Shown piece after piece: positions 29,980 through 39,656 of a stretch of DNA of 64,000 nucleotides. Source of the stretch: Lytechinus pictus (lineage: Eukaryota). The stretch is from contig NC_087246.1 in NCBI RefSeq assembly GCF_037042905.1, positions 13,780,233-13,844,232 on the forward strand, in the 5' to 3' direction. A model generated the notes under the pieces. That model did not search any database. It was not told the origin of the DNA and was given only the letters and a program-made list of their open reading frames with translations. Position numbers and translations under genes: made by a program. The stretch's first letter is position 1; each line of letters starts with the position of its first letter.

Positions 29980-30128
29980 ATGGATCGTGCATCAAAGAGG
30001 GGGAGCAACCAGGAGGAGTCTATCTTCCGCATCCCCCCTTATTACTACATCCATGTCTTGGACCACAATGACAATGTCACCAAGGTCGTTGTGGGTCCTA
30101 AGACCTACATCCGCCAGGACCATGAAAG
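29980..30128 (+). CDS. MVP: MVP exon 1 ([49 protein letters not shown]-). ATG in Kozak context gccATGG.
   Basis: Aligns with human [45 protein letters not shown]. Donor AG|gtagga. Confidence 0.9.
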
Positions 30129-30468
30129 GTAGGATTGACTCTCCTGTGTCCTGTAAAATAGATAATAGAATCATAGAATCTTAATTTGTAACAATTTTAA
30201 GTCTATGGCAAACCCTGTATCACATGTACCTGACATGATACTTACATGTATGTATTATCTAGCTTATCATTTTATTGAAAATAATTTGCATTCCAGCAAG
30301 ATATTAGTAACAAACATACAAAGTAAATATTATTACTTTTGTATCATTCTTTTAGGAACGTTTTTACTAGAATTTCAAATGTTTAATTTTTGATTAAAAA
30401 ATAAATATTGGTTGGAGGCCTTCATTAAGCTATGATTTCTGAACTTCTCTCCCTCTCAATCTCTGTAG

Positions 30469-30664
30469 GGTCATCTTCGGTCCCGAGAAGATGATCACCA
30501 TCCCTCCTAGGCATTACTGTATTGTAGAGAACCCTGTGGTCAGGAATGATGCTGGTCAGGTTGTCTTTGATGGTCTTGGACAGGTCAAGCTATCCCATGC
30601 TGACCAGGAGATCAGGTTAGCCAGGGAACCATTCCCTCTCTACCCAGGAGAAGTATTGAAGCAG
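30469..30664 (+). CDS. MVP: MVP exon 2 ([66 protein letters not shown]).
   Basis: Near-identical to human [23 protein letters not shown]...[19 protein letters not shown]. Acceptor ctctgtag|, donor CAG|gtgaga. Confidence 0.93.
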
Positions 30665-31178
30665 GTGAGATTGGACTTATCTTTACTTTGCCTTGATTTT
30701 GTCTTTAATATTTCATTTGAGAATTGTTCATATATATCTTACCTGTTATTAAACTCAGTTCAGTCTGTTGTACCTTTGGCTCGATTGGACATTTAGTTGA
30801 TACAGTCATACACTTTTTAGTGTCAATTCTATCTATCCTTCCCTCATACATTATTGCTAAGTCAGCAGGTCACAGAAGTTGCATCCAAAATTTAAAATGG
30901 CCTATTTCTAGGTTATTCATCTCATATTTGGGGGATTTTTTTTTTCAATGATAATTTCTAAAAGTTACACTTTGTCCAATTCCCAGCTTAAAAATAACTT
31001 ACTTTGCGATGTCAAAGGGAATGCTATCCCATTGGTTATATAGTATTATTTTGGTCAGGTTTTTTTTTTAGCATCCCAAACTTCTTGAGATACAAAGCTT
31101 TGTTGCCCCAAATTCAAATTAAAATACTATCCATCCACTTTTATCTTAACTGGCTTACACTTCAATTTTTTCCATCAG

Positions 31179-31526
31179 GCTGTGACTGCCTTGAAGGTTG
31201 TCCAGGCCAACGCTGCCCTTAGGCTCCGAGCCATCCTTGACTTCGAGGAAGGTACCCAGAAGCGCGTCGCTGGCGACGAGTGGCTCTTCGAGGGACCCGG
31301 TACCTACATCCCCCGCAAGGAAGTGGTGGTGGACGAGACCATCAGGGCAACCATCATCAGACCTAACCAGGCTATCAAGCTTAGGGCTCGTAAGGAAACC
31401 AAAGATAGGGAAGGCAATACTAGGGTTACTGGTGAGGAGTGGCAGGTGAAGAAGGTTGGTGCCTACCTCCCTGGGGCATATGAGGAGGTGGTCGATACCG
31501 TCAATGCCTACGTGCTCACAGAAAAG
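31179..31526 (+). CDS. MVP: MVP exon 3 ([25 protein letters not shown]...[34 protein letters not shown]).
   Basis: Vault repeat domains. Motifs [20 protein letters not shown] and RVTGEEW are conserved with human MVP. Anchored on ORF 31182..31559. Confidence 0.93.
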
Positions 31527-32009
31527 GTATGCTACATGATTGTTTTCCTTCAAAATTAATTATCTTTTATGTGCTTTGACCCGTCAAAGCTATTTTTATA
31601 TGGAAAATAAGTTAAACAGTTAACAACAAGAAGTGTCAGTTTCTTACGTTAAAATGAATTTACAACTTGATATTGATTTTGTGACAAAATTTTTCTTCGT
31701 TTTTATTTACTCTTATAAATTAGACTTTGATTGGTGCTAAAGAATCAAATATTAAGAATTAGTTGGTTTATTTGAATTAAAGAATAAGGTAGCTTTTTAA
31801 ATAAAGCGGGATCTTTTGATGAGAATGTAAAATTTCATGTAAAAAAATGTTCTTTATATTCCTGATCAAGGGCTTGTAAATTCATGTAAAATATCCATCT
31901 TTTTTTCATTGAAAATTATATAAATTGAATCATTACATCATATCATATTATTACTGTAAACTTTGTTCGTTGAAATATAAATGATAATATAAACATTATA
32001 TTTTTACAG

Positions 32010-32135
32010 AATGCTCTTCACCTAAGAGCCACACGCACATTTGTAGATATGAAGAACCAGACAAGGAAGAATGGTGAGGAGTGGCTGATCACTATGGCTG
32101 ATACAGATGCACACATTCCAGATGTGTATGAGGAG
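32010..32135 (+). CDS. MVP: MVP exon 4 ([42 protein letters not shown]).
   Basis: Matches human [42 protein letters not shown]. Acceptor tttttacag|, donor GAG|gtaaga. Confidence 0.92.
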
Positions 32136-32624
32136 GTAAGAAACTACACCACTCTCCTTTACCTAGTAAGATATTCTTCAAGGACTTGCAGTGTATTCAT
32201 AAAGCACATAATTCCATAAGGAAAAGAAAAATTGTGTTAAAGTTTGGCTAAACATAGACAAGAAGACCAGAATTCTCAAAAGGACTTTGAAGTCATAGAC
32301 ACACACACTTAAATGCCAATAGAATATTATTCCGTAGGATTAGATTCTGTACCCATATACATGTACACTAAAAAATTGAGACCTTTTGAGTTTGACTATA
32401 GATCAAACCTCCTTTGCTGATTGTAGCCATAATGTTTGAATATAAATGAGCTGTTTAAAATAATAAGATGTTGCATTTGTTAAGCTTTTGTAAACCATTC
32501 ATATATTTTTACAACTGATTGAAAGTTTGATATGTATTCAAAACTAATTTGTTGAATTGTATTTTCAAATATCACTTTACAAAACACCCTGAATAATGAA
32601 TATTTTATGTTCTTGTTTCTGATA

Positions 32625-37117: not shown

Positions 37118-37329
37118 AATTCTGCCAAGATCATCCGTGCCTCTGTTTTTGGCTTTGACGAGAAGAACAAGGTGAGGGAGTCCTTCCTGTTCCCTCAAAA
37201 TAGCCTAGTGATCACCTCCATTGATATCCAGTCTGTAGAGCCTGTAGACCAGAGGACCAGGGATGCTCTACAGAAGTCTGTTCAGCTGGCTATTGAGATC
37301 ACCACAAACTCACAGGAAGCTGCTGCCAG
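37118..37329 (+). CDS. MVP: MVP exon 11 ([70 protein letters not shown]-).
   Basis: Matches human NSARIIRTAVFGFE...[48 protein letters not shown] (shoulder domain). Confidence 0.94.
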
Positions 37330-37759
37330 GTATGAAAGACATTTACAATCTTCACCAATTGGCTATTGGCAACACTCTAATGCATGAATGCACTCTAAAA
37401 CACAAATAAAAAGTAACAGAGAAAGCGTTTAGCCAGCCATATACCTGGACTTTGTGAAGCAGGAATTCACTTTTGACCACTAACATGAAGAGCAAATTAG
37501 TCTTTGATAATTGATTCTTTGCAATGTATATTGATGTAAAAGTTCAAATACCGTCATTCAGTGCTATTTGCCACAGTTTTTGTATAGAGTTGGTACGGCC
37601 TTCACTCACTCTGAGAAGTATGTATATATGAATCATCACCATTTTGATTTGTTCTTGGAAGTAAAATTTTGTCAGTTATATTTATTTTTTGCACCCAGTA
37701 CTATTGCCATAAAGTAAAAATGAAATTAGTAAGCCACTCAAACTTCACTTCAATTTCAG

Positions 37760-38003
37760 GCATGAGGCTGAGCGTCTGGAGCAAGAGGCCCGTGGTCGCC
37801 TTGAACGTCAGAAGATCCTGGATGAGGCAGAGGCGGAGAAGTCTCGCAAGGAACTCCTGGAGCTCCAGGCCAACAGTGCAGCCGTGGAGAGCACCGGTCA
37901 GGCCAAGGCAGAAGCACAGTCTCGAGCTGAGGCTGCCAGGATTGAAGGAGAGGCTGCTGTGGACCAGGCCAGGCTCAAGGCTGAAGCAGCCAAGATTGAA
38001 TCA
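37760..38003 (+). CDS. MVP: MVP exon 12 ([82 protein letters not shown]).
   Basis: Cap-helix coiled-coil region. Matches human [65 protein letters not shown]. Confidence 0.93.
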
Positions 38004-38631
38004 GTGAGTATTGCATTTGTTTATCTTTCACTGCAACGAGTTCTTCATGGCAGTTGCATCAACCTCATTGCCATAGATGGAATGAATGTATGGGAAATAT
38101 GAGACTTTCTACAGTTTATTTACAGAGGGGTTTCAGTTTGCTTTTCACTTTTTCAGAAAAGGAATGCATGTAATTTTCAGCTGTTGCGCCTTTTGCATTA
38201 TGAAATATTGAATTAGCAAGTGTATTTCTTGCATAATTGCTGTCAGACTTTGTGACAATACTTTTGTCAAAAAGTATGGAAAATGTAAAAATTTCTTGAT
38301 ATCAACAAATTTTTTGTCTAAAGGGAAATGTACCCTCTGTACTTGGTAGTAGTACTCTAAGTACATCTTTCTAGTGGGTGATGTGACATGGAAGTGTGAA
38401 TATAAGTATATTTGTACAGATAAAACAATTAATTCAAAGTTCTGTTCTGTCAGAATTTCTGTGATTTAAAAGTATGAAACTTTTTTTTTAATACGAACAC
38501 TTTGTTTGGAAATGTATGCCGTTATAATATTTTGACTTGAAATTTACCATTTTAATTTTGGAAGAGATGACCGAAGATAAATGATAATTTATAAAACTGA
38601 AAACTTCTTGATCTCAACCCCTCTCCTCTAG

Positions 38632-38820
38632 GAATCTGAGCTGCAACGCCTGACCAATGCTCGTGAGGCCGAGACCAAGTACGTCAAGGAACAGAATGCC
38701 TTGGAGGTCAACAAGGCCAAGCAGATGTCTGACATTGAGACTGAGAGGTTCGGGAACATGGTTCAGTCCATTGGAGCCGAGACCATCAAGGCCATGGCTA
38801 TGGCTGGACCAGAGATGCAG
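38632..38820 (+). CDS. MVP: MVP exon 13 (ESELQRLTNAREAETKYVKEQNALEVNKAKQMSDIETERFGNMVQSIGAETIKAMAMAGPEMQ).
   Basis: Matches human ...[26 protein letters not shown]. Acceptor ctcctctag|, donor CAG|gtatgt. Confidence 0.92.
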
Positions 38821-39512
38821 GTATGTCAAGTCTTTCAATCCTTTCCCTGCAGTAGTATTACAGGAGATGGTAGCCTTTTCATCTTTTAGTTGGAACATTT
38901 CCAATTTGAAGTTAAAATACTATGGTGTCCGCAAGTGTCTTTTGCTTATGTTTGATGGTTATTTCTTAATTTGGTGGAAAATGCAGTGAATAGGAAACGG
39001 TGTGGTTTGAGGGGGAAAATGAATGGGAAAAGGGAAGATAAAGACCATTACTTGGGATAGTGTCTGATGTGAAGAATGAATTGTATTATTACATCATAAT
39101 GAGGGAGGCAGAGATAGAGGGTGTTGAGAAGGAAATGACAATTTGATTCTTGGCTTATCCCGTTGGCAAACACCCAAGAACAAAACTTTTTGGTTGTAAA
39201 ACTGAAAGTGCTACATTTTATCCTGATGATAAAACAATACAACTAAATTTATGAAAGGCATTTCCCTGTCTAAAATCAGGAGCGTGTTTCATTAACACTT
39301 ATGTCCAACAGATTGTCTGATCCAACATCTCTCCTTGAGTTTGATTGGTTGATAAGCACATTTTCTATGTTGGATAAACATACTTTGTTGAATAAAACAT
39401 CCGTCAAGTCCTTTCATGAGATGCACCCCAGAACTTCATCATGATCATCATTCTGCAAAACTTTGAAACCAGCTCATAATCAATATCTTTCTCCTTTTCC
39501 TTTACTTCACAG

Positions 39513-39656
39513 GTGAAACTGCTCTCTTCACTGGGATTGAAGTCTACCTTGATCACCGATGGATCCACCCCCATCAACCTCTTCAACACTGCCCAGGGTC
39601 TCCTTGGTGGCTTTGCCAATAAGAGAGGCATCGATCAGGTCGATCAAGATGAATAG
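39513..39656 (+). CDS. MVP: MVP terminal coding exon ([47 protein letters not shown]). Stop TAG at 39654-39656.
   Basis: Matches human [32 protein letters not shown] (cap-ring). Acceptor tcacag|. Confidence 0.93.

What the first reader, a model, noticed from the sequence alone, without database searches (positions are those of the whole stretch)
29980..39656. Complete major vault protein (MVP) gene, 14 coding exons, 858 aa
Every exon aligns collinearly with human MVP. The N-terminal IPPYHYIHVLD and PPRHYC motifs, the repeat domains with [20 protein letters not shown] and RVTGEEW, the shoulder region [30 protein letters not shown], the cap-helix [18 protein letters not shown]...ARIEGE and the cap-ring [14 protein letters not shown] are all present. 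All introns have GT..AG sites and consistent phases. The gene model is essentially complete in this window. A MITE lies 0.4 kb upstream of the ATG.
Basis: partly seen in the sequence, partly recalled or inferred. Interest (0 to 1): 0.5.

Follow-up and report, generated by a model that had tools for sequence, protein, structure and literature searches.

The report
Sea urchin major vault protein gene

Summary
On the + strand, 14 coding exons from 29980 to 39656 are joined by 13 GT..AG introns and give an 858-aa protein.

- **Family:** the protein carries all MVP Pfam domains. It aligns in one full-length stretch to solved MVP structures at 1277 bits, about 69% identical to the 893-aa chain.
- **Identity:** the exact sequence is already in RefSeq as major vault protein of Lytechinus pictus, XP_054749263.2 and three sibling accessions.
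- **Exon support:** L. variegatus and Diadema setosum have the same 14 exons and intron positions. A contiguous cDNA from another echinoid aligns in 14 abutting blocks that end at the predicted splice sites.
- **Selection:** dN/dS is 0.025 against L. variegatus and 0.05 against Diadema, so this is a functional gene under strong constraint.
- **Upstream element:** the MITE is real. It is a 611-bp foldback at 29077-29687 with 26-nt terminal inverted repeats and a TA duplication. The orthologous site in L. variegatus is empty.

Small corrections:
- The motif reads [11 protein letters not shown], not IPPYHYIHVLD.
- The MITE lies 0.29-0.90 kb upstream, not 0.4 kb.
- The AATAAA at 40245 is not conserved, but those at 40493 and 41215 are.

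The 5' UTR and the poly(A) site remain unresolved. This gene is already known and of low interest.

The parts
29980..30128 (+). MVP coding exon 1 (aa 1-50, split codon). The ATG is at 29980 in the context GCCATGG.
   Evidence: model. It is 98.7% identical to L. variegatus, against about 85% in the introns. Diadema and cDNA L003 start at the same ATG.
30469..30664 (+). MVP coding exon 2 (aa 50-115), containing PPRHYC
31179..31526 (+). MVP coding exon 3 (aa 116-231), Vault repeats with [20 protein letters not shown] and RVTGEEW
32010..32135 (+). MVP coding exon 4 (aa 232-273)
32626..32736 (+). MVP coding exon 5 (aa 274-310)
33450..33575 (+). MVP coding exon 6 (aa 311-352)
34228..34380 (+). MVP coding exon 7 (aa 353-403)
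34828..35063 (+). MVP coding exon 8 (aa 404-482, split codon)
35832..36029 (+). MVP coding exon 9 (aa 482-548), end of the repeat array and start of the shoulder domain
36448..36592 (+). MVP coding exon 10 (aa 548-596), shoulder domain
37118..37329 (+). MVP coding exon 11 (aa 597-667), end of the shoulder domain and start of the cap-helix
37760..38003 (+). MVP coding exon 12 (aa 667-748), cap-helix
38632..38820 (+). MVP coding exon 13 (aa 749-811), cap-helix
39513..39656 (+). MVP coding exon 14 (aa 812-858 plus the TAG stop), cap-ring with [14 protein letters not shown]. The 3' UTR continues downstream for an unknown distance.
29863..29979 (+). Sequence directly upstream of the ATG, conserved at exon-like levels. 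It holds ACCTTTGAC (29966-29974), invariant in four echinoids, and a T9 tract followed by AG dinucleotides that would let an exon start at 29958 or 29960. It is therefore either a contiguous 5' UTR and core promoter or the 3' end of a 5' UTR intron. Unresolved.
   Evidence: At least 96% identity between L. pictus and L. variegatus from 29863 onward; four-species alignment; AG positions
39657..41240 (+). Putative 3' UTR. AATAAA at 40245 is not conserved in L. variegatus. AATAAA at 40493 is conserved. AATAAA at 41215 is conserved together with 69 of 70 flanking bases. The end point is inferred, not shown.
   Evidence: The cDNA of another echinoid has a 3' UTR of at least 1.3 kb.
29077..29687 (.). 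611-bp foldback, MITE-like element. It has 26-nt terminal inverted repeats (CCGTATGGGTACTAGTATTCAACCCG) and a TA target-site duplication (29075-29076 and 29688-29689). It lies 0.29-0.90 kb upstream of the ATG.
   Evidence: Inverted repeats. The 17-nt repeat motif occurs 5 times here and nowhere else in the window, against 0 expected. The orthologous site in L. variegatus is empty, with a single TA. It folds as one long hairpin at -136.6 kcal/mol, z = -22.8.
22629..22876 (+). Candidate distal promoter and non-coding first exon (speculative). It has an octamer ATGCAAAT (22629), CCAAT boxes (22672, 22721), an ATTGG (22689), and then a consensus donor CAAG|GTGAGT that would end an exon at 22876.
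   Evidence: At least 97% identity between L. pictus and L. variegatus. It is 77% identical to Diadema in the same orientation, 5.3 kb upstream of that species' MVP ATG. Motif and donor positions. No transcript evidence.

Best explanation
Window 29980-39656 (+ strand) is the intact, functional, single-locus orthologue of the major vault protein gene (MVP) of the sea urchin Lytechinus pictus.

**What is shown.** Fourteen coding exons are spliced through 13 GT..AG introns into an mRNA for an 858-aa protein.

**What is inferred from homology.** The protein has the standard MVP layout:
- an N-terminal array of vault repeat domains (about aa 15-521);
- a shoulder domain (522-640);
- a long cap-helix (about 650-810);
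- a cap-ring segment (about 811-845) and a short acidic tail.

From the solved rat and human vault structures, and from the cryoEM reconstruction of vaults purified from the sea urchin Strongylocentrotus purpuratus, 78 such chains should assemble into the hollow, barrel-shaped vault particle. The repeats would form the barrel wall and the cap-helices would bundle to form the caps.

**What is open.** The non-coding parts of the gene are not resolved: the promoter, the 5' UTR exon or exons, and the poly(A) site. A lineage-specific foldback MITE sits 0.3-0.9 kb upstream of the ATG.
For: - **Model:** 14 exons, 858 aa, all introns GT..AG.
- **Domains:** Pfam Vault (9e-68), MVP_shoulder (7e-54, aa 522-640), Vault_3, Vault_2 and Vault_4, all far above their gathering scores.
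- **Structures:** a single full-length alignment to solved MVP chains, 1277 bits with query 12-847 against chain 4-854. It is 69% identical to the 893-aa chain.
- **Annotation:** the exact sequence is RefSeq major vault protein [Lytechinus pictus] on a 70.6-Mb contig. It matches the older version of that RefSeq record, XP_054749263.1, at 856 of 858 residues.
- **Relatives:** the best database relatives are all MVPs of echinoderms, hemichordates and other metazoans at 75-91% identity.
- **Exon structure:** the same 14 exons, with identical lengths and GT/AG sites, occur in L. variegatus and Diadema setosum. Conservation between L. pictus and Diadema is confined to the 14 exons. Between L. pictus and L. 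variegatus, the exons are 96-100% identical and the introns about 85%.
- **Transcript support:** an uninterrupted echinoid cDNA contig (Logan SRR6173504) aligns in 14 abutting blocks that end at the predicted junctions.
- **Selection:** dN/dS is 0.025 against L. variegatus and 0.052 against Diadema.
- **Literature:** sea urchin vaults with a ~100-kDa MVP have been purified and reconstructed by cryoEM (PMC550661).
Against: Nothing contradicts this explanation. The limits are as follows.
- No transcript data from L. pictus itself were available. Exon boundaries therefore rest on splice consensus, cross-species conservation, a cDNA from another species, and identity with a RefSeq model that is itself computational.
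- Assembly into vault particles is inferred from homology and was not tested for this species.
- The 5' UTR structure and the poly(A) site are unknown.
Confidence: 0.97

Rival explanations
1. The locus is a non-functional or decaying duplicate (an unprocessed pseudogene or a diverging paralogue) of MVP, not the working gene.
For: None specific. It is considered only because the window shows a single locus and the rest of the genome could not be searched.
Against: - The 858-codon reading frame is intact and all splice sites are canonical.
- dN/dS is 0.025-0.05.
- Exon lengths are identical in three echinoids.
- The product equals the RefSeq MVP of the species.
- Only one cluster of Lytechinus MVP sequences appeared in the protein search.
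Confidence: 0.01
2. The gene is MVP, but the real mRNA differs from the 14-exon model in some detail. Possibilities include an alternative or extra coding exon, an alternative start, or isoforms with a different C-terminus.
For: - Longer isoforms are annotated in other deuterostomes, for example 888-943 aa in Branchiostoma and 1022 aa in Apostichopus.
- RefSeq lists four accessions for the identical L. pictus protein, which suggests several transcript variants.
- There are conserved non-exonic blocks in intron 13 and upstream.
Against: - The four RefSeq accessions share one protein sequence, so any variation is most likely in the UTRs.
- The cross-species cDNA shows exactly these 14 blocks with no extra sequence.
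- The conserved block in intron 13 belongs to a dispersed repeat family.
- An in-frame stop (TGA at 29971-29973) lies just upstream of the ATG.
Confidence: 0.05

Closest known systems
RefSeq major vault protein, Lytechinus pictus (XP_054749263.2, XP_063966302.1, XP_063966312.1, XP_063966316.1)
   Same: Identical over all 858 residues in an exact-sequence look-up, so it is the same gene.
   Different: Nothing at the protein level. The earlier version, XP_054749263.1, differs at two residues, G789R and E798D. I read these as allelic or assembly differences.
Lytechinus variegatus MVP (XP_041456561.1) and Diadema setosum MVP
   Same: The same 14 coding exons with identical lengths and intron positions. 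L. variegatus differs at 4 residues. Diadema is 91% identical.
   Different: - Intron sequences are about 85% identical in L. variegatus and unalignable in Diadema.
- The Diadema gene is longer, 14.6 kb against 9.7 kb.
- The 611-bp foldback element upstream of the ATG is absent from L. variegatus.
Strongylocentrotus purpuratus MVP and sea urchin vault particle (Stewart et al. 2005, PMC550661)
   Same: This is a sea urchin MVP of ~100 kDa with N-terminal repeats and a C-terminal coiled coil. The purified particle has the same barrel shape as the rat vault.
   Different: It is a different echinoid genus. The S. purpuratus sequence was not retrieved by name here, so I measured no identity against it. 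That paper reports 64% identity to rat MVP. I measured 69% identity of the L. pictus protein to the 893-aa PDB chain over the aligned region.
Mammalian MVP, solved vault structures (PDB 4V60/4HL8, 861 aa; 11dr, 893 aa; 9z4w, 890 aa)
   Same: Full-length collinear alignment covering the repeats, shoulder, cap-helix and cap-ring. The count of 14 coding exons matches what I recall for human MVP: 15 exons with the ATG in exon 2. That is from memory and was not tested here.
   Different: - The urchin protein has an N-terminus 8 residues longer ([11 protein letters not shown]...).
- It lacks a 10-residue insertion in the shoulder region, near query residue 613.
- It has a short acidic C-terminal tail in place of the longer Pro/Gly-rich mammalian tail.

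Membership tests
Major vault protein (MVP) | N-terminal array of MVP repeat domains (Pfam Vault PF01505, Vault_2 PF17794, Vault_3 PF17795, Vault_4 PF17796) | tested here: met
   Vault 224.5 bits (4 stretches), Vault_2 126.3 bits (2 stretches), Vault_3 127.6 bits and Vault_4 76.8 bits. All are far above the curated cut-offs of 23-29 bits.
Major vault protein (MVP) | Shoulder domain (Pfam MVP_shoulder PF11978) following the repeats | tested here: met
   aa 522-640 match profile positions 1-118 of 118, at 181.3 bits and E = 7e-54.
Major vault protein (MVP) | C-terminal cap-helix and cap-ring segments, collinear with solved MVP chains | tested here: met
   a single alignment of query 12-847 to chain 4-854 of 9z4w_A. 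There is also a separate match of aa 746-847 to the 140-residue C-terminal fragment 9z5n_B (2e-32). This is a sequence-level result only; I predicted no structure.
Major vault protein (MVP) | Orthology: closest relatives are MVPs of related species, in a conserved gene structure | tested here: met
   - Exact match to L. pictus RefSeq MVP.
- 91% identity to Diadema MVP, and 79-81% to crinoid, starfish and hemichordate MVPs.
- Identical exon structure in three echinoids.
- Most intron positions appear shared with Saccoglossus and Nematostella, judged approximately from the ends of the tblastn aligned segments.
Major vault protein (MVP) | Purifying selection and an intact reading frame (a functional gene) | tested here: met
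   dN/dS is 0.025 and 0.052; no internal stop codons.
Major vault protein (MVP) | Self-assembly into the 78-mer vault shell, and association with vault RNA, TEP1 and PARP4 | not testable with these tools
   Inferred from homology. This has been shown for S. purpuratus vaults by purification and cryoEM (PMC550661). No Rfam family, including vault RNA, matched anywhere in the window.
Major vault protein (MVP) | Expression with the predicted junctions in L. pictus | not tested
   No L. pictus transcript data were reachable: the exact-protein contig look-up returned nothing. Only a cDNA from another echinoid supports the junctions.
MITE (miniature inverted-repeat transposable element), for the upstream element | Terminal inverted repeats flanked by a target-site duplication | tested here: met
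   26-nt terminal inverted repeats with 93% complementarity (pair I4). TA lies on both sides, against a single TA at the empty L. variegatus site.
MITE (miniature inverted-repeat transposable element), for the upstream element | Small, with no transposase, and an insertion absent from the orthologous site of a relative | tested here: met
   - The element is 611 bp.
- L001 9707-9716 lacks it.
- It forms a long hairpin fold with z = -22.8.
- I ran no protein-domain search on its short open stretches.
MITE (miniature inverted-repeat transposable element), for the upstream element | Many dispersed copies in the genome | not testable with these tools
   There is only one copy in the 64-kb window and none in the fetched loci. 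The L. pictus genome could not be searched.

The most novel reading that the evidence does not exclude
The only parts not already known are non-coding.

- **A possible distal promoter.** A module with an octamer (ATGCAAAT) and CCAAT boxes at 22629-22790 is conserved in position and orientation upstream of MVP in Lytechinus and Diadema. A consensus splice donor follows at 22876. This could be the real MVP promoter plus a non-coding first exon, 7 kb upstream of the ATG.
- **A possible regulatory insertion.** The L. pictus-specific foldback MITE at 29077-29687 would then lie in the 5' UTR intron, or in an alternative proximal promoter, where it could alter MVP regulation compared with L. variegatus.
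- **A possible enhancer or alternative leader exon.** A 250-nt block at 26558-26807 is almost 100% identical between the two Lytechinus species.
Probability: 0.3. Interest if true: 0.15.

Novelty: already known. Interest (0 to 1): 0.07.

Why it matters
It matters little beyond quality control.

- **Pipeline check:** the first-stage reader rebuilt a 14-exon eukaryotic gene from raw sequence, and its product matches the RefSeq protein residue for residue.
- **Origin of the window:** its MVP product exactly matches Lytechinus pictus RefSeq MVP and differs from the L. variegatus protein at 4 residues.
- **Biology:** MVP is already annotated in this species. Sea urchin vaults were purified, sequenced and imaged in 2005 (PMC550661).
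- **Modest additions:** exact exon coordinates; evidence that the intron positions are old; a dated MITE insertion next to the gene; and candidate promoter, leader-exon and poly(A) positions that transcript data could settle.

Tried and rejected
- **L. pictus contig look-up.** The exact-protein look-up for the L. pictus protein returned nothing, so no same-species transcript or annotated gene range was available.
- **Locating the 5' UTR exon with a foreign cDNA.** I aligned the 217-nt 5' UTR of the echinoid cDNA L003 to the 17 kb upstream of the ATG. The best local scores were no better than shuffled controls, apart from the 9-nt ACCTTTGAC next to the ATG. That cDNA leader also contains donor-like and acceptor-like sites, so it may include a retained intron.
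- **RNA searches.** Rfam at gathering thresholds over the whole window, and at E up to 1 over 26000-30000, found no known RNA family and no vault RNA. ARAGORN found no tRNA.
- **The conserved block in intron 13** (39261-39409) looked like a possible hidden exon or small RNA. It belongs instead to a ~140-nt dispersed repeat family with copies at 49481-49575 and upstream in L. variegatus.
- **Pseudogene or paralogue readings** are rejected on the intact ORF, dN/dS and the exact RefSeq identity.
- **Searches not run.** I ran no further search on the neighbouring genes, or a structure prediction on MVP. Neither would change the verdict.

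
Full report
**Observation.** Three-frame translation of 29500-40600 shows a series of open segments with clear MVP-like peptides. Anchoring these to splice consensus gives 14 coding exons:

| Exon | Coordinates | Exon | Coordinates |
|---|---|---|---|
| 1 | 29980-30128 | 8 | 34828-35063 |
| 2 | 30469-30664 | 9 | 35832-36029 |
| 3 | 31179-31526 | 10 | 36448-36592 |
| 4 | 32010-32135 | 11 | 37118-37329 |
| 5 | 32626-32736 | 12 | 37760-38003 |
| 6 | 33450-33575 | 13 | 38632-38820 |
| 7 | 34228-34380 | 14 | 39513-39656 (with stop) |

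The coding sequence is 2577 nt, or 858 codons plus a stop. All 13 introns are GT..AG and 340-768 nt long.

All quoted motifs are present except one. IPPYHYIHVLD is the human form, and the window encodes [11 protein letters not shown].

**Identity of the product.**
- Pfam finds Vault, Vault_2, Vault_3, Vault_4 and MVP_shoulder, with E-values from 1e-21 to 1e-67.
- Against PDB sequences the protein aligns in one stretch (12-847) to full-length MVP chains at up to 1277 bits. Counting the printed alignment gives 69% identity to the 893-residue chain.
- In the large protein collection the top hit is major vault protein of Lytechinus pictus. It is followed by MVPs of Diadema (91%), crinoids, starfish, hemichordates and many other metazoans at 73-81%.
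- The representative XP_054749263.1 differs at two residues. An exact-sequence look-up shows that my 858-aa product is itself on record as XP_054749263.2, XP_063966302.1, XP_063966312.1 and XP_063966316.1, major vault protein [Lytechinus pictus], on a 70.6-Mb contig.

The window's product therefore matches the painted sea urchin's MVP exactly, and the gene is already annotated.

**Support for the exon structure.** I fetched the L. variegatus (L001) and Diadema setosum (L002) MVP loci.
- blastn of the window against Diadema gives 14 conserved blocks across the gene, each coinciding with one predicted exon. The only other hits are three short ones far upstream.
- Mapping the exons onto both loci gives identical exon lengths and AG/GT boundaries. 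The only exception is a one-codon difference in Diadema exon 1.
- Against L. variegatus the exons are 96-100% identical and the introns about 85%. A sliding-window profile at 96% or above recovers all 14 exons.
- A 4115-nt Logan contig from an RNA-seq run of another echinoid (SRR6173504, L003) carries an uninterrupted 860-aa MVP ORF. It aligns to the window in 14 blocks that abut in cDNA coordinates and end at the predicted splice sites. This is cross-species transcript support for every junction.
- Nei-Gojobori estimates give dN/dS of 0.025 against L. variegatus (dS 0.09) and 0.052 against Diadema (dS about 1.2). That indicates strong purifying selection.
- tblastn of the protein against the Saccoglossus and Nematostella loci shows aligned segments ending at or near most of the same positions: about aa 50, 231, 310, 482, 548, 596, 667, 748 and 811. 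The exon structure therefore appears old. These segment ends are only approximate markers of intron position.
- A paper on MVP reconstruction mentions a mammalian exon 9 spanning at least rat residues 523-545 (PMC3762200). That would sit close to the urchin exon 9 boundary at aa 547/548. I did not test this further.

**How it works.** The sequence shows the domain order: repeats, shoulder, cap-helix, cap-ring. From the solved mammalian structures I infer that 78 copies form the vault shell. Stewart et al. 2005 (PMC550661) supply the sea urchin evidence. They purified S. purpuratus vaults, found a ~100-kDa MVP, and obtained a cryoEM reconstruction nearly identical to that of the rat vault. The cellular role of vaults remains uncertain in general. 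[quoted passage not shown]

**Surroundings.**

- Position 29077-29687 holds a 611-bp element with 26-nt terminal inverted repeats and long, imperfectly complementary arms.
- Its 17-nt repeat motif occurs five times there and nowhere else in the window.
- It folds as one long hairpin with z = -22.8.
- In L. variegatus the orthologous site is empty. The sequence reads ...AAATGTATAGATTGTG... with a single TA, whereas L. pictus has TA-element-TA.
- It is therefore an insertion, or less likely a precise loss in the other lineage, with a TA duplication. That suggests a Tc1/mariner-type MITE. The superfamily and the genomic copy number could not be tested.

*The 5' end.*
- Sequence from 29863 to the ATG is conserved at exon-like levels.
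- ACCTTTGAC, just upstream of the ATG, is invariant in four echinoids.
- A T9 tract followed by AG dinucleotides would allow an acceptor, with an exon starting at 29958 or 29960.
- Further upstream there are two strongly conserved non-coding blocks.
  - 26558-26807 is close to 100% identical between the two Lytechinus species. It has no ORF and no Rfam match.
  - 22629-22790 has an octamer and three CCAAT/ATTGG boxes. It is also conserved in Diadema in the same orientation upstream of MVP, and a consensus donor follows at 22876.
- Either block could be a promoter or leader exon. Four RefSeq accessions share one protein, which fits alternative UTRs. That is inference only.

*The 3' end.*
- AATAAA at 40245 is changed to AATAAT in L. 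variegatus.
- AATAAA at 40493 is conserved.
- AATAAA at 41215 is conserved and lies in a block identical at 69 of 70 positions.

*Neighbouring genes.*
- Exons of an unconventional myosin motor lie on the minus strand at 1476-12912.
- Two very long Ser-rich open stretches lie on the minus strand at 50935-53160 and 54355-55563, with no Pfam match.

**Verdict.** This is an already annotated, ordinary, well-conserved housekeeping-type gene, and its protein family is already characterised in sea urchins. Interest is low. The only open items are the UTR and promoter structure and the lineage-specific MITE next to the gene.

Noticed in passing
window 22629-22876 (+): A promoter-like module with an octamer ATGCAAAT, two CCAAT boxes and one ATTGG. 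It is at least 97% identical to L. variegatus and 77% identical to Diadema, in the same orientation upstream of MVP. A consensus donor CAAG|GTGAGT follows, which would end an exon at 22876. It could be the distal promoter and non-coding exon 1 of MVP, or of another + strand transcript.
   Followed up: partly
window 26558-26807: A 250-nt block that is close to 100% identical between L. pictus and L. variegatus, against a background of about 83%. It has no ORF in any frame and no Rfam match. It contains donor-like sites, for example ACAG|GTGTGT after 26626. It could be an enhancer or an alternative leader exon.
   Followed up: partly
window 1476-12912 (- strand): Exons of an unconventional myosin motor domain (Pfam Myosin_head). 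The N-terminal exon, at 12652-12912, contains the peptide MRVWVANSN. The best PDB matches are class V myosins, by a small margin, so the class is not resolved. The gene runs off the left end of the window.
   Followed up: partly
window 50935-53160 and 54355-55563 (- strand): Two unusually long open stretches of 742 and 403 aa. They are Ser/Lys/Asp-rich and low in complexity, with no Pfam match. They are probably large exons of one unidentified minus-strand gene downstream of MVP.
   Followed up: no
window 39294-39432, window 49481-49575, and L001 5233-5360: A dispersed repeat family of about 140 nt. One copy sits in MVP intron 13 and is 97% conserved between the two Lytechinus species.
   Followed up: partly
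window 42160-48507: The region downstream of MVP is more conserved against L. variegatus (90.5% overall, with many blocks at 96% or above) than the MVP introns (about 85%). It is AT-rich and has no obvious ORFs. The stretch 42160-43033 also has an inverted copy, 95% identical, upstream of MVP in L. variegatus (L001 1618-2482).
   Followed up: no
window 1767-2309: A long, imperfect CAT/CAC-type microsatellite that translates as poly-His in one frame. It lies inside a myosin intron.
   Followed up: no
window 16765-17334, 19704-20233, 24120-24596, 61731-62150: Several G/C-rich stretches share Gly/Pro-rich pseudo-translations such as FWKK.GG.LKPP.P..RGP, in both orientations. This looks like another dispersed repeat family.
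   Followed up: no
window 3446-3952 (+): An open stretch with a peptide (…LPHLEYCCNAWTNC…) that reminded me of the C-terminal region of non-LTR retrotransposon ORF2 fragments. It has no Pfam match, so this rests on recollection only.
   Followed up: no
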